A DNA stretch of 64,000 bases, taken from positions 196,916-260,915 of the forward strand of contig JBBRSP010000005.1 of the NCBI GenBank assembly GCA_038245295.1, given 5' to 3'. This DNA is from Candidatus Binatia bacterium. GTDB taxonomy: Bacteria > Desulfobacterota > Binatia > HRBIN30. Below the pieces are notes generated by a model that was given only the letters and a program-made list of their open reading frames with translations, was not told the DNA's origin and made no database searches. Position 1 is the first letter of the stretch; each line of letters begins with the position of its first letter. The position numbers and the translations under genes were made by a program. This document shows, piece after piece, positions 10,856 through 35,348 of the stretch.

Positions 10856-11015
10856 GAGACTGTCGATCTTCTCTGATTCATCGTTTGAAACTGCGCAAAC
10901 ACCTCCGTCATACCGGCGAAAGCCGTTATCTCCCCAGCATTTTTGGCCTTCCACTCGAGGAGATACCGGCTTTCGCCGGGATGACGTTGCTTCATTTTAG
11001 TTTATCGACAGTCTC
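10856..11015. mobile_element. 160-bp MITE, subfamily A, with an internal inverted REP-hairpin pair
   Basis: Perfect terminal inverted repeat GAGACTGTCGAT...ATCGACAGTCTC; internal CGTCATACCGGCGAAAGCCG.. and ..CCGGCTTTCGCCGGGATGACG. Confidence 0.85.
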
Positions 11016-17403: not shown

Positions 17404-17674
17404 ACACAGCCCGGCTTCCAGCCGGAACCAACTCAGGCCAACCATCGCTACCCCCGTCATTCCGGCGAAAGAGTGTGTCGATTTACTCGGAAACCATATT
17501 TGAAACCGAGCAGACCTATCCGTCATACCGGCGAAAGCCGGCATCTCGCCAGCTTTCGAGGCTTCCAGCACTGGGAGATCCCGGTTTTCACCGGGATGAC
17601 GTTGCTCCACTTTGGTTTTACGACAGTCTCGAAAGCCGGAATCTCCCAAGCATTCCGCGGTTTCCTATCGAGGA
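17404..17674 (+). repeat. Host REP-doublet repeat (element C), first hairpin interrupted by a MITE
   Basis: CACAGCCCGGC...GCCGGAACCAACTCAGGCCAACCA leader also at about 35051 and, inverted, at 28630-28678. Confidence 0.8.
17471..17630 (+). mobile_element. 160-bp MITE, subfamily B, inserted in a REP loop with GAAA duplication
   Basis: CCGGC-GAAA-[GAGTGTGTCGAT...CGACAGTCTC]-GAAA-GCCGG; removing it restores the hairpin. Confidence 0.88.
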
Positions 17675-24857: not shown

Positions 24858-27422
24858 ATGAACGCCCAGCCAACATTCCCGGATGTCACGCATGTCGACG
24901 TTGCGCTTGATAATGTCCGACACCCTGCGGCCGGCCTTCATCCCAAAAACGCCGCCATGAAGGCACGACTGCTTGCGGCCGACCATTGGCTGTGTATCGA
25001 GCGCGCCCGCTACGCCACCGAGGTCTATGGCGAAACCGAAGGCATGCACCCGTCTCTCCGCGCCGCTCTCTGCCTCGAGCGTGTGCTGGAGAAGATGACG
25101 GTGCGTATCGACCCCGAAGAACTCCTCGTCGGCAACCGCTCCTCGCGCCCCATCGCTCCCCCCATTGCGCCGGAACGCGGCGACTTCACCTTCGTCTTCC
25201 GTTACCTCTTCGAAGACCTTGAAGCCTTTGGCTACCGCATCGCCCCGCAAGACAAGGCGCGGCTCTTCGACGACATCATCCCGGCATGGGAAGGCAAGAC
25301 CGTGCGTGATGCGAAGGTCACCGCGTTCGAGGCGCATGGGCTGAGCAGCAAGCTCAACACTTCACCGCGCGAGCTCCTGCACAAGCTGCGCTGCTTCGGG
25401 CCGCACACACTCAGCAAGCTGCTGGCCCCGCGCAACGGCAGCCGGGGGAATCGGCTGGCACGGCTGCCGCGCCTCCTGCGCGCCATACAGGCCGGCGCGA
25501 AGGACAACCTGAAGGGACGCGGGCGCTGCACCGACACGCAGGCGCACATCGTCCCAGGCCACAAGAACGTACTGGCTGTTGGCTTCTCTGGCATCCGCGA
25601 CGCCGCGCACGCACGCCTCACCGCGGCGCCGTGCAGCGACTCGCAGCGTGCCTTTCTCGACGGTGTGGTACGCAGCTGCGAGGCGATGCATGCCTTCTCG
25701 GGTCGCTTCGCAACCCTGGCGCGCGCCCAGGCGGAAGCGACAACCGACACGGCGCGGCGTTCGGAGTTGCTGGCCATCGCGGCCAGGTGCGAGCGTGTAC
25801 CCTGGCTACCGCCACGGAGCTTTGTCGAGGCCGTGCAAGCACTCTGGTTCACCCAGAACGCCGCAATCATCAGCTACGGCGCCGGCAGCGGCATCACGCC
25901 CGGTCGTGTCGACCAGCTCCTCTTTCCATTCTTTGAGGCCGATCTCGCCAGCCGTGCCATCACTCGCGAACATGCATTGCGCGTGCTCGAGGAGCTCGTC
26001 ATCAAACTCAACGACAACGTCGTCATCTGGCCCAACATCGGCGGCGTGGAACTCAACCATCTGGGGTCGGACGTCGAGAACATCACGATCGGCGGCGTCG
26101 ACGCGAAAGGCGACGACGCAACGAACGAGCTGTCGTGGCTCTTCATCGAAGCGATCGAGAACACCAACCTCGCGACAACGGCCTCGTTCCGCGTCTCACA
26201 CCGGAGCCCGCCCGACTTCGTGCGGCGGGTCGTCGAGATGCATCGGAAGACCAATTCGCCGGCGTTCCTGAACGACGAGACGGCGATCGCTGCCCTGGTG
26301 AACGACGGGTACTCGATCGAGGCGGCGCGCCAGTACTGCCTCGTGGGTTGCGTTGAGCCGAGCGGTAACGGCGACACCTTCGGCGCAACCGGCGGCACGA
26401 AAGTCTACTTCCCAACCGCGCTCGATCTCGTGTTCAATCGCGGCCGCACCTCGTTCTTCGGCAACCAGGATGGCCCGGACACCGGTGATCCGCTTGCCTT
26501 TCGCACCTTCGATGAGCTGCTCGCGGCGTTCTTCCGCCACCTCGAAGTAATGGTTGGACAAGTCACCGAAGCGACACGCCTGCGCGACCGCATCTGGGCG
26601 GAGCGCTTCCACAATCCGCTCATTTCCTGCACCATCGACGGTTGCATCGAGAAGGCGCAGGACATGACCGCCGGCGGCGCTCGCTACACATTCGGCGCCG
26701 TCGGTGGCGGCGGCCTCGCGACAGCCGTGGACTCGCTGGCAACGGTCCGCGCCCTGGTGTTCGAACAGCGCAAGGTATCGATGAAGGAACTGTTACGGGG
26801 CCTCGCCACCAACTTTCGCGGCCGTGAAGCGCTGCGGCAGCAGCTGCTCAACGGCCCGCGCTTCGGCAATGATGATCGCCGGGTCGACGAGCTGGCGCGC
26901 CTGATCGTCGACCGCTTTTGCCAGATGGTGCGTGCCGAGCCCACGGCGATAGGCGGGCACTATAAGGCGAGCCTGATCTCCTATGGGCTCAACGTCTACG
27001 AGGGCGCGCTCGAGCCGGCGACACCCGATGGGCGCCAAGCTGGAGAGCCGCTGTCGAACAGCATGTCACCAAGCAATGGCGCCGAACGGAAGGGCCCGAC
27101 CGCGGCGCTCAACTCCATGGCACGGATCGATCATACCAAGATCGGCTACGGCAACTCGCTCAACATGCGATTGCCCATCGGCCTGCTGCGCTCCGCGAAG
27201 GGCGTCGAGAGCGTGGCGAGTCTGGTCCGCACGTACTTCCGCAAGGGTGGCTTCCATGTGCAGTTCAACGCCGTTGATGCGGCGACCCTGCACGCGGCGC
27301 AAGAGCGACCGCAGGACTACGCCGACCTCATCGTACGCGTGTCCGGCTACTCGGCGTACTTCACGCGCCTGGGACGTCAGATCCAGGACGACATCATCGC
27401 CCGCACCGAGCTGTCGCCATGA
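24858..27422 (+). CDS. Glycyl radical enzyme (PFL2/eliminase-like), substrate unknown
   Basis: YCLVGCVEP Cys loop, ATPDGRQAGEPLSNS, HVQFN, C-terminal LIVRVSGYSAYF glycyl motif. Confidence 0.9.
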   Translation: MNAQPTFPDVTHVDVALDNVRHPAAGLHPKNAAMKARLLAADHWLCIERARYATEVYGETEGMHPSLRAALCLERVLEKMTVRIDPEELLVGNRSSRPIAPPIAPERGDFTFVFRYLFEDLEAFGYRIAPQDKARLFDDIIPAWEGKTVRDAKVTAFEAHGLSSKLNTSPRELLHKLRCFGPHTLSKLLAPRNGSRGNRLARLPRLLRAIQAGAKDNLKGRGRCTDTQAHIVPGHKNVLAVGFSGIRDAAHARLTAAPCSDSQRAFLDGVVRSCEAMHAFSGRFATLARAQAEATTDTARRSELLAIAARCERVPWLPPRSFVEAVQALWFTQNAAIISYGAGSGITPGRVDQLLFPFFEADLASRAITREHALRVLEELVIKLNDNVVIWPNIGGVELNHLGSDVENITIGGVDAKGDDATNELSWLFIEAIENTNLATTASFRVSHRSPPDFVRRVVEMHRKTNSPAFLNDETAIAALVNDGYSIEAARQYCLVGCVEPSGNGDTFGATGGTKVYFPTALDLVFNRGRTSFFGNQDGPDTGDPLAFRTFDELLAAFFRHLEVMVGQVTEATRLRDRIWAERFHNPLISCTIDGCIEKAQDMTAGGARYTFGAVGGGGLATAVDSLATVRALVFEQRKVSMKELLRGLATNFRGREALRQQLLNGPRFGNDDRRVDELARLIVDRFCQMVRAEPTAIGGHYKASLISYGLNVYEGALEPATPDGRQAGEPLSNSMSPSNGAERKGPTAALNSMARIDHTKIGYGNSLNMRLPIGLLRSAKGVESVASLVRTYFRKGGFHVQFNAVDAATLHAAQERPQDYADLIVRVSGYSAYFTRLGRQIQDDIIARTELSP

Positions 27423-28147
27423 ACGGACACGTCTTCGACATCCAACGCTTCAGTGTCCACGACGGCCCCGGCATCCGCACGACTGTATTCCTGGCCGGCT
27501 GCCCGCTGCGCTGTGTCTGGTGCCAGAATCCGGAAGCCTTCGCCGGCGCGACGGCCCCCTCGCTGGCGGCAGAGACGGTGATTTCGGAAGTTCTCGAAGA
27601 CCGCGAGTACTACGCGACGAGCGGCGGGGGCCTCACTCTGTCAGGCGGCGAGCCGCTGCTGCAGGTAGCGTTCGTGCACGCCCTCCTGAAACTTGCCAAG
27701 CGTCACGACCTCCATACATGTATCCAGACGGCGGGCGCGGTGCCAACGAGCGCGCTGCTCGACGTCCTCGATCTGGCAGACCTCGTCCAGTTTGACCTCA
27801 AGCACATGGATACCGCGCGCCATCGCGAGCTCACCGGCGTCGGCAACGAGCGGATCCTCGAAAACGCGGTAATCCTGGCGTCGAGCGGCGCGACGGCTGA
27901 GTTCCGTATGCCGCTTCTGCCAGGTTTCAACGACAACCAGGGCAATCTCGAGCATCTCGCTAGCTTCCTGTTGGCGCACGGTGTCTGCCAACTCCACCTC
28001 GTGCCGTACCAGCGTCTGTACCTCGCGAAGTACGACCTCCTCGGCATGGCGTCCTGTGCCGACATGGAAGTGCCCTCGGCAGAGCTGATGAACCGGGTAG
28101 TCGGGCAATTCCGTGAGTGTGGCCTCTCGGTCAGCGTCGACGAGTAG
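27419..28147 (+). CDS. Glycyl-radical activating enzyme (radical SAM, short form without ferredoxin insert)
   Basis: IQRFSVHDGPGIRTTVFLAGCPLRCVWCQNPE, GGLTLSGGEPLLQ; ATGA overlap with the GRE. Confidence 0.93.
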   Translation: MNGHVFDIQRFSVHDGPGIRTTVFLAGCPLRCVWCQNPEAFAGATAPSLAAETVISEVLEDREYYATSGGGLTLSGGEPLLQVAFVHALLKLAKRHDLHTCIQTAGAVPTSALLDVLDLADLVQFDLKHMDTARHRELTGVGNERILENAVILASSGATAEFRMPLLPGFNDNQGNLEHLASFLLAHGVCQLHLVPYQRLYLAKYDLLGMASCADMEVPSAELMNRVVGQFRECGLSVSVDE

Positions 28148-28275
28148 GCAGCCAGCCACTCCGCTTGGTTCCGGCTGGAAGCCGGGCTTGTGGAACAAGC
28201 GTTGCAAATCTTGTCGGTGCACGAAGATTTTCCCGGCGCCGCATTTTGTTAGCCTGACATGTCACCCCGGCGAAA

Positions 28276-28560
28276 GAGACTGTCCTTCGTCATACAGGCG
28301 AAAGCCGGTATCTCCCCAGCATTTTTGGCCTCCCACTCGAGGAAATCCCGGCTTTCGAGCCTGCCGTAAAACCAAAGTGGAGCAACGTCATCCCGGTGAA
28401 AACCGGGATCGCCGCCTGCTGGAAGCCTCGAGAGCTGGCGATATACCGGCTTTCGCCGGTATGACGGATCGGTCTGCTCGGTTTCAAATATGGTTTCCCA
28501 GTAAATCGACCTACTCTTTCGCCGGGATGACATTGCTTCATTTCAGTTATCGACAGGCTC
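28276..28560 (+). mobile_element. MITE subfamily A (short internal deletion), itself interrupted by a B copy
   Basis: GAAA-[GAGACTGTC...CGACAGGCTC]-GAAA; body matches 10856-11015. Confidence 0.85.
28357..28516 (-). mobile_element. 160-bp MITE subfamily B nested inside MITE A
   Basis: TTTC-[GAGCCTGCCGTAAAACC...ATCGACCTACTC]-TTTC; reverse complement of 17471-17630. Confidence 0.87.
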
Positions 28561-28722
28561 GAAAGCCGGTATCTCCTCGATTGGAAACTGCGGTATGCTC
28601 GGGAGATTCCGGCTTTCGCCGGAATGACGGAGGTGGGCTGGTTGGCCTGAGTTCGTTCCGGATGGAAGCCGGGCTGTGAGGTTCTCTAGATTCCTCGCGA
28701 TGGCCTGGGATAGAAGACACTC

Positions 28723-30942
28723 ATGCATCGACCACTTTCATGCGCACTCGCGGCAGCGTTGATCATCCTTTGCAGTCGCTCAACTCTGGCGCAGGGTTGC
28801 GTTGGTGATTGCAATGGCGACCACGTCGTCACCATCGACGAGATCGTCCGCGGCGTCGGCATCGCGTTGGATTTGAATCCGCTCACCGATTGCGCGGCGC
28901 TCGACGCCAACCGCGACGACACAATCGATATTGCCGAGATCGTCGCGGCGGTGGGCAATCTCGCCTCCAGCTGCCCGGCGGAGGATCCACGCCTTGTCCG
29001 CACGCAGTCGGGGCTCTTGCGCGGCAACCTCGCGAGTGGGGTGCGCAGCTTTCTCGGCATTCCCTACGCCGCGCCGCCGGTTGCCGATTTGCGCTGGCGC
29101 AACCCGCAGCCGCCGGCCGAGTGGTCCGGCACGCGTAGCGCCAACCAGGCGGGCTCCGTGTGTCCGCAAACCGTGCCGATCATCAACGCCGAGATGGGTG
29201 ACGAGGATTGTCTTTTCTTGAACGTCCAGACGCCCAATCCGCCGCCGGCACAACCTCTGCCGGTGATGGTGTGGATTCACGGCGGTGGTTTCACGTCGGG
29301 CGACGGATTGGAATTTGGTGGCACGGACGGCAGTGACATTGTGCGTCGGAGCGGTGTCATCGTGGTCACGCTGAACTATCGCCTCGGTGCGCTCGGGTTT
29401 CTTGCCCTGCAGGATTTCTCCGCAGACGCTGGTGCCTCCGAGATAACCGGAAATTACGGGCTGCTGGATCAGGTCGCCGCCCTCAAGTGGGTGCGGCGCA
29501 ACATCGGCGCATTCGGCGGTGATCCGCACAACGTCACACTCTTCGGCGAGTCGGCCGGCGGATTCAGTGTTTGCTTCCACCTCGTCTCGCCGCTGAGCGC
29601 CGGCCTCTTCCACAAGGCGATCAGCGAGTCAGGGGTCTGTACACCGACGTCGGCAAACCTCGCCGACGCACGCGAACAAGGGATCCGCTTTGCCAGAGCA
29701 CTCAACTGCGACCTGGGGCACAGTCTTGATCCTGCCGCCTGCTTGCGCGCCAAGCGCGCTGACGAGATTCGCCACACCCTGCCCCCGGATCCGAACTTCG
29801 CCTTCACCCCCGGCGAGTGGGGCACCTGGTCGCCCATCGTCGACGGCACAACGGTCACGGGACAGGTGCCTGACCTGATCGCGGCAGGGCAGTTCAATCG
29901 CGTCCCGGTAATGCTCGGATCAAACCGCGATGAAGGCACTCTCTTCGTGGCGCTGTCGCACGGCCAGGCAGGCATGCCCCTGACGGCCGACCAGTATTCC
30001 GGCGACCGCGGCCTGGGCTACTTTCTGCCCTCGCCGGACCTCGTAGCTGCGACGCAGCAGGAGTACCCGCTGAGCGGCTACGCGACACCTGGCGCAGCGT
30101 TGGCCGCCGCGTTCGGCGACGCGTTTCTCGGCTGTCCGGCGATCGATCTGGCGAGTAAGCTCAGCCCGTTCGTCTCCACCTATCTCTACCAGTTCAACTA
30201 CCCCGATGCGTCTTTCTCGCTGCCGCTCGACGTGCCGCTAGGCGCGTTTCACTCGGCGGATATTCAATTCGTCTTCGGCCGCCGGGCCGGTGGCGTGTTG
30301 AGCGCCGGGGAGCGCCAACTGAGTGACCTGATGATGGGCTACTGGACGCGCTTCGCCCGCACTGGCGACCCCAACGCAGCGACGGCGCCAACGTGGCCCT
30401 TACACGGCGATGCGGCGAACTATCTCGCCATCGATCGCGAAACGGTGGCGGCGCAAGCGCCGAAGGCCGGGCAGTGCGCCTTCTGGCGTGGCGTCGATTA
30501 CTTCCGAACGGAACTCGCCGATCCATGGGCAGAGGCGCGCCGGGTATTGGCGGAGAACCGCGCGAAATGGGCCGCGTCGCACATTTCAGCGTATACGATG
30601 CTGTTCCATCGCGGCTGCTTTTGCCCCGGGCCGGCGGATGTTGAGATCGCCGCGGACGGCCACGGTGGTTTGCAGATCAGGGATGCCCAAAGCGGCGAGC
30701 TGCTCAATTTGAGCGATCCGGCGTCGGCGGGATACTTATCGGTTGAGCAAACGTTCTCGCTGATCGAGCAAGCCATCGACGCCCCCGTCCCCATTTTGGA
30801 CGTCGCCTACGCTCCACTGCTCGGTTACCCCACCAGGATCTTCATTGATCACCAATACCAGGCCGTTGATGACGAAACCGAGATCGAGATCCGGGCTCTG
30901 CTGCCTTTTCCGGCACAGACACCGGTATCCACGGTGAATTGA
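28723..30942 (+). CDS. Secreted type-B carboxylesterase with N-terminal dockerin-like domain and C-terminal DUF6174-like domain
   Basis: FLGIPYAAPP, EDCLFLNV, WIHGGGF, NYRLG, FGESAGG, GAFHSADI; CVGDCNGD tag; C-terminal GCFCP...GYP...DDE. Confidence 0.88.
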   Translation: MHRPLSCALAAALIILCSRSTLAQGCVGDCNGDHVVTIDEIVRGVGIALDLNPLTDCAALDANRDDTIDIAEIVAAVGNLASSCPAEDPRLVRTQSGLLRGNLASGVRSFLGIPYAAPPVADLRWRNPQPPAEWSGTRSANQAGSVCPQTVPIINAEMGDEDCLFLNVQTPNPPPAQPLPVMVWIHGGGFTSGDGLEFGGTDGSDIVRRSGVIVVTLNYRLGALGFLALQDFSADAGASEITGNYGLLDQVAALKWVRRNIGAFGGDPHNVTLFGESAGGFSVCFHLVSPLSAGLFHKAISESGVCTPTSANLADAREQGIRFARALNCDLGHSLDPAACLRAKRADEIRHTLPPDPNFAFTPGEWGTWSPIVDGTTVTGQVPDLIAAGQFNRVPVMLGSNRDEGTLFVALSHGQAGMPLTADQYSGDRGLGYFLPSPDLVAATQQEYPLSGYATPGAALAAAFGDAFLGCPAIDLASKLSPFVSTYLYQFNYPDASFSLPLDVPLGAFHSADIQFVFGRRAGGVLSAGERQLSDLMMGYWTRFARTGDPNAATAPTWPLHGDAANYLAIDRETVAAQAPKAGQCAFWRGVDYFRTELADPWAEARRVLAENRAKWAASHISAYTMLFHRGCFCPGPADVEIAADGHGGLQIRDAQSGELLNLSDPASAGYLSVEQTFSLIEQAIDAPVPILDVAYAPLLGYPTRIFIDHQYQAVDDETEIEIRALLPFPAQTPVSTVN

Positions 30943-35050: not shown

Positions 35051-35348
35051 ACACAGCCCGGCCGTTGGCCGGAACCAACTCAGGCCAACCAGCCCTACTT
35101 CTGTCATTCCGACGAAAGCCGGAATCTCCCCAGCCTTCCGCAGTTTCCAATCGAGGAGATCCCGGCTTTTCGAGACTGTCGTAAAACCAAAGTGGAGCAA
35201 CGTCATCCCGGTGAAAACCGGGATCTCCCCCTGCTGGAAGCCTCGAAAGCTGGTGAGATACCGGCTTTCGCCCGTATGACGGCTAGGTCTGCACGGTTTC
35301 AAATATGGTTTCCGGGTAAATCGACACACCCTTTTCGCCGAGATGACA
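35051..35348 (+). repeat. Host REP-doublet repeat (element C), second hairpin interrupted by a MITE
   Basis: Same leader and REP doublet as 17404. Confidence 0.8.
35172..35331 (-). mobile_element. 160-bp MITE subfamily B with 5-bp loop duplication (TTTTC)
   Basis: CCGGC-TTTTC-[GAGACTGTCGTAAAACC...ATCGACACACCC]-TTTTC-GCCGA. Confidence 0.87.

What the first reader, a model, noticed from the sequence alone, without database searches (positions are those of the whole stretch)
28257..28678. Self-targeting 160-bp MITE forming three-level nested insertions in REP hairpin loops
Seen: host hairpin CCGGC-GAAA-GCCGG is split by MITE A (28276-28560, GAAA duplicated at 28272-28275 and 28561-28564). One hairpin inside A is in turn split by inverted MITE B (28357-28516, TTTC duplicated). 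Each MITE carries two copies of the same CGTCAT.CCGG.GAAA.CCGG hairpin it inserts into, so every insertion supplies new targets. Known: some IS1182-family elements target stem-loops and duplicate only the loop. Inference: a non-autonomous derivative that captured its own REP target, giving it a self-made safe haven and spreading REPs.
Basis: partly seen in the sequence, partly recalled or inferred. Interest (0 to 1): 0.8.

Follow-up and report, generated by a model that had tools for sequence, protein, structure and literature searches.

The report
Small transposons nested in repeat hairpins
Two copies of a tiny gene-less transposon sit one inside the other in the hairpin loops of a bacterial repeat, and because this transposon carries the same kind of hairpin that it lands in, it partly builds its own landing sites.

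Summary
MITE A (28276-28560) splits a REP hairpin of a host repeat and duplicates its GAAA loop. MITE B (28357-28516) splits a hairpin of A and duplicates TTTC. Cutting each out in silico restores sequences that align colinearly with intact copies elsewhere in the genome.

Genome-wide I found 273 element ends. Of these, 242 abut a CCGGY stem half plus 4 bases, against 0.6% of random positions. 41 of 99 paired ends have an exact 4-bp direct duplication, against 12.3 after shuffling.

The ends are identical to those of 1.7-kb IS1182-family insertion sequences in related genomes, which also sit in hairpin loops with 4-bp duplications. No matching transposase was found in this assembly.

The hairpins are CGTC-tagged REPs. 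182 of 261 lie inside the element's arms. Only one of the four hairpin kinds carried is a frequent target, so "every insertion supplies new targets" is overstated.

Public contigs do not bridge the array. Earlier notes of this scan report similar elements in other genomes. This is a new variant of a known kind, of moderate interest.

The parts
28196..28275 (+). Left part of the host repeat ('type C', at least 18 copies). It ends with the tag TGTCAC (28260-28265), the stem half CCCGGC (28266-28271) and the first GAAA copy (28272-28275).
28276..28560 (-). MITE A, LB...RB type, lying reversed. It spans 285 bp including B; its own sequence is 121 bp, with a 38-bp deletion in the right arm. Its ends are GAGACTGTCC (28276-28285) and CGACAGGCTC (28551-28560).
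28288..28312 (+). Intact REP hairpin of A on its right-arm side. The tag is CGTCAT and the stem is degenerate (CAGGC/GCCGG).
28345..28356 (-). One half of A's LB hairpin (ATCCCGGC) plus the first TTTC copy (28353-28356).
28357..28516 (+). MITE B, LA...RA type, 160 bp. Its ends are GAGCCTGCCG and CGACCTACTC. It carries two intact CGTCAT-tagged REP hairpins at 28386-28410 and 28442-28466.
28517..28560 (-). Second TTTC copy (28517-28520), the other half of A's LB hairpin (GCCGGGAT, 28521-28528), and A's LB arm up to its end.
28561..28678 (+). Right part of the host repeat. It holds the second GAAA copy (28561-28564), the stem half GCCGGTAT, a spacer, the host's second intact REP (28605-28629), and an arm ending in the hairpin CCGGATGGAAGCCGG (28658-28672).
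17471..17630 (-). Another 160-bp copy in the window (RA...LA), in a REP loop with an exact GAAA duplication.
10856..11015 (-). Another 160-bp copy in the window (RB...LB). The flanks are REP halves with no exact duplication.
35172..35331 (+). Another 160-bp copy in the window (LA...RA). The flanks are GGAGATCCCGGCTTTTC and TTTTCGCCGAGATGAC.

Best explanation
A and B are non-autonomous derivatives (MITEs) of an IS1182-family insertion sequence. They keep only the IS's two unlike ends, 16-18 bp beginning GAGACTGTCG. Between those ends they carry a head-to-head pair of CGTC-tagged REP hairpins.

Inferred mechanism: an IS1182-family DDE transposase supplied in trans recognises a short G+C-rich hairpin or palindrome. 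It joins the element's ends across the dyad axis with a 4-bp stagger, so the 4-base loop is duplicated and the two stem halves end up on either side.

Shown by sequence: A landed in a REP of a host repeat, and B landed in the one REP of A that is a good target.

Inferred: because the element carries REPs, transposition multiplies REPs. It creates some new landing sites, which yields nested arrays confined to non-coding repeat DNA. Later homologous recombination and deletion between the many copies produce mosaic arms, mismatched or inverted loop copies, and stacks of arms.
For: Local anatomy and in-silico excision.

Genome census. 273 ends were found. 193 have an exact CCGGY+4 flank and 242 have it with at most 1 mismatch, against 1184 of 200000 random positions. 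There are 99 end pairs, 74 of them 140-170 bp long. 41 of 99 have an exact direct 4-bp duplication and 18 more are one mismatch off; shuffling gives 12.3 +/- 3.0, maximum 23 in 2000. The duplicated 4-mers vary (TTTC 13, GAAA 8, GGAG 6, CTTC 5, CTCC 3, GCAG 2, and four singles). 20 of the 55 pairs whose left 4-mer is not GAAA or TTTC still match exactly. The repeat is therefore target DNA and not part of the element.

Non-REP hairpins are also hit, at C25:15547 (ATCT), C50:221 (AGTC) and C3:378272 (TAAA). 11 further pairs are enclosed in another pair.

Autonomous relatives. G036:C403:104-1837 is a 1734-bp element with the same ends and a 531-aa transposase carrying DDE_Tnp_1_6 and DUF772; it lies in CCTTCCCCC-CTTG-CGGGGGAAGG with CTTG duplicated. 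Homologues occur in 10 of 52 genomes of the order. 5 of 12 loci inspected show both ends with identical 4-bp flanks inside a palindrome: L014, L018, L025, L019 and L022.

End identity of 16/16 and 18/18. The end pattern occurs 133 times in G000 and 15-158 times in 8 relatives, against 0-1 for the reversed control.

Published context. IS1182-family members target stem-loops, and loop-only duplication is one proposed outcome (PMC5678879, sections 22 and 29 read). ISPse1 (IS1182 family) makes 4-bp repeats (PMC3281130, passages). MITEPye1 is an IS1182-derived MITE with 4-bp repeats (PMC11578231, passages).
Against: No cognate transposase was found in this genome. The best match to the G036 protein has 27% identity and belongs to a different IS1182-like element with other ends. 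Mobilisation here is therefore not shown and may be extinct.

58 of 99 pairs lack an exact duplication. 20 of them carry the loop inverted on one side, exactly or with one mismatch. I explain this by recombination between copies but did not test it.

2 of the 12 full-length loci (L017, L024) have both ends but no matching 4-mers.

The copies are 5-13% diverged from their nearest neighbour (median identity 0.95, maximum 0.988), so there is no sign of very recent activity.

The locus itself is not bridged by any independent contig.
Confidence: 0.8

Rival explanations
1. The nested order at this locus is an assembly chimera. The short-read assembler of a metagenome bin threaded through several near-identical copies, so A-in-host and B-in-A may not lie together at this place.
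For: All three public runs are held as contigs, and none spans the array. The flanking contigs stop at 28317 and start at 28608. At 28411, 28432 and 28470 every laid contig shows another letter than the window. The genome has 129 contigs, and many of them end in repeats.
Against: One contig (X1 record 1) runs from unique DNA through the host/A junction to 28317 with one differing letter. The same kinds of junction recur at 11 other enclosed pairs. A chimera made by homology would still copy junctions that exist somewhere in the genome, so the phenomenon would stand even if this locus were mis-joined. B has private variants in both ends.
Confidence: 0.1
2. The A+B composite, or stacks of arms, moved as one unit using the outer ends, and B did not land in A at this place. 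This does not exclude the main reading.
For: Seven enclosed pairs have outer elements of 322-325 bp and 160-161-bp inner elements (C2:210068, C4:257576, C5:123566, C9:24276, C11:179365, C33:29287, C35:13272). In five of them the inner LA/RA element sits in the outer LB hairpin, as in the window. C33:29333-29610 matches the window's composite over 278 bp at 90%. There are peaks of end-to-end distance near 200-220 and 260 bp.
Against: The inner element occurs in both orientations relative to the outer one, so there were at least two independent nesting events. B is closer to C2:35817 and C5:29515 (93-94%) than to the inner copy of C33 (91%). Those two copies are themselves nested, so this does not settle the question. 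A carries a private 38-bp deletion.
Confidence: 0.15
3. The array is a BIME-like REP cluster, built by a REP-associated tyrosine transposase (RAYT) or by recombination between REPs, with no DDE transposon involved.
For: The hairpins are REPs arranged as head-to-head dimers, as in REPINs and BIMEs. Five Y1_Tnp-like genes exist in the genome.
Against: 0 of 5 Y1_Tnp loci has this REP within 1.5 kb. The units are bounded by the inverted ends of an IS1182-family element and by variable 4-bp duplications. Di Nocera et al. found no dedicated transposase for CGTC REPs (PMC3733652, abstract).
Confidence: 0.03

Closest known systems
IS1182-family insertion sequences and their MITEs (ISPse1 of Paracoccus, PMC3281130; MITEPye1/ISPye18, PMC11578231)
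   Same: They have terminal inverted repeats of about 16-18 bp and 4-bp direct repeats. The non-coding derivatives share only the ends with the IS, and the transposase family is the same.
   Different: The elements here carry a pair of REP hairpins of the kind they insert into. They occur at more than 130 ends per genome, against the 1-3 copies reported for MITEPye1. Nearly all lie in hairpin loops, many of them inside one another.
IS1272 / TnSha1 of staphylococci (IS1182 family), stem-loop-targeted transposition (PMC5678879 read; PMC4923244 seen in the search listing only)
   Same: The target is a short inverted repeat recognised as a structure. Tandem duplication of one end is reported for IS1272, and stacks of 45-bp left arms are seen here.
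   Different: IS1272 replaces the stem-loop and leaves no duplication. Here both stem halves stay and the loop is duplicated. That corresponds to pathway c in Fig. 13 of that paper, which is proposed there as a possibility.
REP-targeting insertion sequences: IS1397/ISKpn1 and ISPsy8 (IS3 family), IS621, ISPpu9, ISPpu10, ISPa11 (IS110 family), ISRm22 (IS4 family) (PMC1525189)
   Same: REPs act as hot spots, with insertion at the palindrome axis. Imperfect direct repeats are attributed to recombination between copies.
   Different: Those are autonomous elements of other families that do not carry REPs. The elements here are gene-less and bring REPs with them.
CGTC-tagged REPs, family CGTC-1 (Di Nocera et al. 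2013, PMC3733652)
   Same: There is an unpaired CGTC tag, an 8-bp stem starting with AT, a 4-base loop, and head-to-head dimers.
   Different: Here 182 of 261 hairpins are embedded in arms bounded by IS1182 ends. The tail is CTCC, not CCA.
REPIN-RAYT systems
   Same: A pair of inverted REPs serves as the unit that multiplies.
   Different: No RAYT is associated with these REPs. The unit has DDE-type inverted ends and target duplications.

Membership tests
MITE derived from an IS1182-family insertion sequence | Terminal inverted repeats that match those of an autonomous IS1182-family element | tested here: met
   The LA arm is 16/16 identical to one end of the G036 element. The RB arm is 18/18 identical to the other end of the G036, G022 and G001 elements. 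LB is 15/16 and RA is 15/18.
MITE derived from an IS1182-family insertion sequence | The autonomous relative encodes an IS1182-family transposase | tested here: met
   NF033551 scores are 311.6 bits (G001) and 278.4 bits (G013) against a cut-off of 270. G036 scores 264.2, just below. Pfam finds DDE_Tnp_1_6 and DUF772.
MITE derived from an IS1182-family insertion sequence | Small size and no transposase gene | tested here: met
   The unit length is 160 bp (peak). B is 160 bp and A's own sequence is 121 bp.
MITE derived from an IS1182-family insertion sequence | Short direct target duplication at the ends | tested here: met
   GAAA and TTTC are duplicated at this locus. 41 of 99 pairs match exactly, against 12.3 after shuffling.
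MITE derived from an IS1182-family insertion sequence | A cognate transposase in the same genome that could move it | tested here: not met
   It was not found with the G036 protein. The best match has 27% identity and lies on an element with other ends. The assembly is 96.6% complete and has 129 contigs, so absence is not proved.
CGTC-tagged REP, family CGTC-1 | Unpaired CGTC tag, 8-bp stem beginning AT, 4-base loop, mostly head-to-head dimers | tested here: met
   The consensus of the 261 hairpins is CGTCAT-aCCGGC-GAAA-GCCGGg-ATCTCC. The family definition was read in PMC3733652, section 6.
CGTC-tagged REP, family CGTC-1 | Short unpaired tail fitting CCA | tested here: not met
   The tail is CTCC.
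REPIN-RAYT system | A RAYT (Y1 transposase) gene flanked by the REPs that it moves | tested here: not met
   0 of 5 Y1_Tnp loci has this REP within 1.5 kb.
IS1272-type stem-loop-replacing transposition | The target stem-loop is removed and no duplication is left | tested here: not met
   Both stem halves are kept and the loop is duplicated.

The most novel reading that the evidence does not exclude
In this lineage, CGTC-type REP dimers multiply as cargo of a MITE that is moved in trans by an IS1182-family DDE transposase, not by a RAYT. The family has no known transposase, so this would supply one.

The element inserts into REP loops and so lays down its own landing pads. The hairpin variants it now mostly carries (stems ACCGGC and CCCGGT, hit at about 5-7%) may have been selected because they escape being split. 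The ancestral CCCGGC stem is hit at about 58%. That would make it a self-sustaining transposon-target system with evolving immunity.
Probability: 0.35. Interest if true: 0.7.

Novelty: new variant of a known kind. Interest (0 to 1): 0.5.

Why it matters
How REPs spread is only partly understood. [quoted passage not shown] Here 182 of 261 such hairpins ride inside a MITE with the ends of an IS1182-family element. This gives a concrete and testable vehicle for them.

The data also give a clean natural read-out of how an IS1182-type transposase chooses targets. The cut is a 4-bp stagger across a hairpin axis. One stem base makes a strong difference: CCCGGC is hit at about 58% and ACCGGC at about 7%. 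The biochemistry of this family has hardly been studied, so this difference could guide experiments.

For genome annotation, the result explains dense and confusing intergenic repeat arrays in these uncultured bacteria.

Tried and rejected
Full-length partner in the own genome. Pairing end motifs 400-4000 bp apart gave only chance pairs. Eight DDE_Tnp_1 loci were inspected; none has these ends. The multi-copy IS1182-like element at C18, C10 and C20 has ends GGGGTCGTA. C74 holds an IS3-family element. The end plus non-MITE sequence at the tip of C27 turned out to be an unrelated repeat abutting a truncated arm.

RAYT link: rejected.

Read support. One search found 3 runs of one study, all held as contigs. 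No contig bridges the array, so this gives neither support nor refutation of the nesting. Empty-site alleles could not be sought.

Relatives. The 160-bp element B was found only in G000 among the 31 genomes searched, so no orthologous empty sites were available. Paralogous intact copies were used instead.

Literature. Searches and 72 of the held library found no description of an IS1182-derived MITE that carries REPs and inserts into REP loops. Subscription journals are not covered. The bioRxiv paper 10.1101/2024.06.02.596822 (passages read) proved irrelevant.

Earlier notes of this scan describe similar elements in other genomes. They are unchecked leads and are not used as evidence.

Full report
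THE LOCUS

The array lies in the 575-bp gap between two ORFs on the + strand, 27419-28147 and 28723-30942. The window is G000:C5:196916-260915. The genome has 6.63 Mb, 129 contigs and 62.6% G+C.

- A host hairpin, tagged TGTCAC, is split after its loop.
- Element A (28276-28560) lies between two GAAA copies, at 28272-28275 and 28561-28564.
- One hairpin of A is split in the same way by element B (28357-28516), which lies between two TTTC copies, at 28353-28356 and 28517-28520.
- The elements start and end with imperfect inverted decamers: GAGACTGTCC/CGACAGGCTC for A and GAGCCTGCCG/CGACCTACTC for B.

EXCISION TEST

Deleting A and one GAAA by coordinates gives a host sequence that aligns through the hairpin with four uninterrupted paralogous copies. 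There is no gap in C13, C25 and C9; C3 has two extra bases there. The host is a repeat of about 195 bp with at least 18 copies.

Deleting B and one TTTC leaves a 121-bp A. It aligns with seven other copies and its hairpin is restored. The only difference is a private 38-bp deletion in its right arm. The restored sites fold as hairpins.

There are therefore two insertion events in three layers. I did not show that the bottom layer is itself mobile.

THE FAMILY IN THE GENOME

The strict pattern CCGGNGAAANCCGG occurs 261 times. Its consensus context is CGTCAT-hairpin-ATCTCC.

Listing the neighbourhoods of one hairpin variant showed a 160-bp unit. It begins GAGACTGTCG, ends CGACA(G/C)(T/A)CTC, and is nearly always flanked by half hairpins.

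I derived four arm consensus sequences: left arms LA and LB, right arms RA and RB. With them I found 273 ends. This is an undercount, because three of the four ends at the finding itself were too diverged to be caught.
- 193 of 273 ends are preceded by exactly CCGGY plus four bases.
- 242 of 273 are so preceded when one mismatch is allowed.
- 1184 of 200000 random positions (0.6%) show the same pattern.

Pairing ends like brackets gave 99 pairs and 75 unpaired ends. 74 of the pairs are 140-170 bp long. The 4-mers on the two sides of the 99 pairs compare as follows:

| Class | Pairs |
|---|---|
| Identical (direct) | 41 |
| One mismatch off direct | 18 |
| Inverted exactly | 11 |
| Inverted with one mismatch | 9 |
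| Neither | 20 |

Shuffling the right flanks gives 12.3 +/- 3.0 identical pairs, with a maximum of 23 in 2000 shuffles.

The duplicated 4-mers vary (TTTC, GAAA, GGAG, CTTC, CTCC, GCAG and others). 20 of the 55 pairs whose left 4-mer is neither GAAA nor TTTC still match exactly. The repeat is therefore duplicated target DNA, and the element starts at GAG.

A few copies lie in hairpins that are not REPs, for example C25:15547, C50:221 and C3:378272. I saw no clear bias of element orientation relative to the loop (13 against 8).

Eleven pairs are enclosed in another pair.

WHAT THE NON-MATCHING FLANKS MEAN

In many pairs without a duplication, the left flank is a GTCAT-side half with GAAA and the right flank is a GTCAT-side half with TTTC. 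An example is C9:19431-19590, whose flanks are inverted at 14 of 14 bases. The middle of the two-hairpin host is then missing.

There are also stacks of 45-bp left arms, for example four in a row at C10:213088-213221. The arms and middles are mosaic: 31 LA-RA, 20 LB-RB, 18 LA-RB and 3 LB-RA among 72 unit copies.

My reading is that two insertions went into the two hairpins of one host, or one element nested in another, and recombination or slippage between the 160-bp direct repeats followed. I did not test this. Tobes and Pareja explain imperfect repeats of ISRm22 in the same way (PMC1525189, passages). Tandem duplication of one end is also reported for IS1272 (PMC5678879, abstract and legend of Fig. 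5).

THE AUTONOMOUS RELATIVE

Nothing with these ends and a transposase gene was found in G000.

In the order to which the genome belongs, the pattern GAGACTGTCGDWWWW occurs in 23 of 52 genomes. The counts are 158 in G034, 133 in G000, 119 in G015, 45 in G006, and 15-26 in five others. The reversed control pattern occurs 0-1 times per genome.

In G036, two ends 1734 bp apart bound a 531-aa ORF. It carries DDE_Tnp_1_6, DUF772 and a weak DDE_Tnp_1 match. It scores 264.2 bits on NCBIfam 'IS1182 family transposase', whose cut-off is 270. The homologues in G001 and G013 score 311.6 and 278.4.

Homologues at E <= 1e-30 occur in 10 of the 52 genomes, with nine matches in G013 and none in G000.

Of 12 loci inspected:
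- Five show both ends with identical 4-bp flanks inside a palindrome: CTTG in L014, TTGG in L018, L025 and L019, and GACC in L022.
- L016 lies in a REP of the kind seen in G000. GAAA stands on both sides, offset by one base.
- L017 and L024 have both ends but no matching 4-mers.
- In L015, L020, L021 and L023 the two ends were not both found or are cut by a contig end.

The two ends of these elements differ from each other beyond the first decamer, and the MITE arms copy both. LA is 16 of 16 identical to one end of the G036 element. RB is 18 of 18 identical to the other end of the G036, G022 and G001 elements.

This makes A and B derivatives of an IS1182-family element that inserts at hairpin axes with a 4-bp stagger. 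The catalytic steps themselves are inferred from what is known of DDE transposases and from the model in PMC5678879 (section 29).

THE CARGO

The hairpins fit the CGTC-1 family of Di Nocera et al.: a CGTC tag, an 8-bp stem beginning with AT, a 4-base loop and head-to-head dimers. The tail differs (PMC3733652, section 6).

182 of the 261 strict hairpins lie in a recognised arm. Many of the other 79 lie in diverged or truncated arms, in the host repeat family, or in a further family (Y) that begins GGTAGTGGGTCC. By eye, Y shares the inner arm sequences but has other ends.

None of five Y1-transposase loci has these REPs nearby.

MITEs with the same ends but unrelated, REP-free cores occur in G000 (C5:75788-75979 and C6:1573-1764) and in relatives.

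In the one scan of the public genome collection, the REP-loop/end junction was found in 62 stretches. 14 are in one record set titled 'uncultured bacterium RBC016' and 9 are in one MAG titled Candidatus Binatia. The other 39 lie in other records, nearly all once per genome, as expected by chance.

REP hairpins occur in relatives that have none or very few of these ends (G019: 0 end patterns, G022: 6). The REP dimer thus looks like acquired cargo. That remains inference.

TARGET CHOICE

The element's own hairpins are not equally hit. Counts are intact / split by another end / unclear:

| Arm | Intact | Split | Unclear | Total |
|---|---|---|---|---|
| LB | 26 | 27 | 12 | 65 |
| LA | 64 | 6 | 9 | 79 |
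| RA | 36 | 3 | 7 | 46 |
| RB | 68 | 7 | 8 | 83 |

By stem type:

| Stem | Intact | Split halves | About hit |
|---|---|---|---|
| CCCGGC | 48 | 132 | 58% |
| TCCGGC | 26 | 33 | 39% |
| ACCGGC | 115 | 16 | 7% |
| CCCGGT | 67 | 7 | 5% |

One caveat applies. Intact hairpins were counted only with a GAAA loop, whereas split halves were counted with any loop. This inflates the higher fractions, and movement of composites would do the same.

Within LB-RB elements the two hairpins have the same age, so the difference is not one of time. Recognition therefore reads the stem sequence as well as the shape. It follows that B-type elements (LA-RA) add poor targets.

AGE AND ASSEMBLY

Unit copies are 87-99% identical to their nearest neighbour, with a median of 95% and 12 pairs at 97% or more. 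The family is not freshly expanded.

The complete B element was found only in G000 among 31 relatives.

Three runs of one study hold the region, but only as contigs, which break in the repeats. One contig carries unique DNA through the host/A junction to 28317. None bridges 28317-28608. The order at this single locus therefore rests on the assembly. The phenomenon itself rests on many loci.

WHAT IS KNOWN AND WHAT IS NEW

Already known:
- Hairpin targeting by IS1182-family elements (PMC5678879).
- 4-bp repeats and MITE derivatives in this family (PMC3281130, PMC11578231).
- REPs as IS targets (PMC1525189).
- CGTC REPs (PMC3733652).

My searches of the held library found no description of an IS1182-type MITE whose cargo is the REP dimer that it targets. 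Nor did they find its high copy number, routine nesting and unequal susceptibility of the carried hairpins.

Earlier, unchecked notes of this scan describe similar elements in other genomes. The arrangement is therefore probably widespread and under-described, not unique.

I class it as a new variant of a known kind.

Noticed in passing
window 28165-28188 and 28652-28675: A 24-base direct repeat, 92% identical, contains the hairpin CCGG(C/A)TGGAAGCCGG and brackets the whole array. The right copy belongs to the host repeat's right arm. Other copies of that arm have CCGGCCAACGGCCGG there instead. Its meaning is unknown.
   Followed up: partly
G000 C7:26070-26235, C5:64022, C9:19350-19700 (outside the window): A further repeat family (Y) begins GGTAGTGGGTCC at both ends. 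By eye, its inner arms and REP dimer resemble those of the 160-bp MITE. It may be the source of the MITE's cargo, or a sister element moved by another enzyme.
   Followed up: partly
G000 C10:213088-213221, C9:158020-158110, C11:67310-67400: Three or four 45-bp left arms stand in tandem, each consisting of the end, the arm and a half hairpin, without the matching remainders. This recalls the tandem duplication of the left side reported for IS1272.
   Followed up: no
G000 C18:1-1521, C10:118527-120128, C20:98751-99761 and several contig ends: A different multi-copy IS1182-like element of about 1.6 kb has ends GGGGTCGTA. Its 430-aa transposase (DUF772, DDE_Tnp_1, DDE_Tnp_1_6) is 27% identical to the G036 protein. 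It breaks the assembly at several places.
   Followed up: partly
G000 C5:75788-75979, C6:1573-1764, C45:22959: A 192-bp MITE family has the same GAGACTGTCG ends but a core without REPs. It is also inserted in REP loops.
   Followed up: no
G000 C19:83, C20:83, C43:93, C5:147687: The sequence CCCGCTCAGGCTGAGCCTGTCGAAGCCGGCTCCGCAAGG recurs near contig starts. It belongs to another abundant repeat that shares the GAGCCTGTCG decamer by chance or by descent.
   Followed up: no
G000 C63:6758, C5:43339, C2:296896, C53:8423: Four hairpins with the same CCGGCGAAAGCCGG core lie in a different, conserved context (…GAGAGCCCGA-hairpin-CTTGGCGAGTC…). They are not part of the MITE system and could be a structured RNA motif.
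   Followed up: no
G000 C27:83398-83538, C81:4924-5064, C48:1-217: An unrelated repeat begins AAACTAATAGAGG and lies at three contig ends. In C27 it abuts a truncated MITE left arm.
   Followed up: partly
G000 C74:281-1966: This is an IS3-family element with a two-ORF transposase of the rve type.
   Followed up: no
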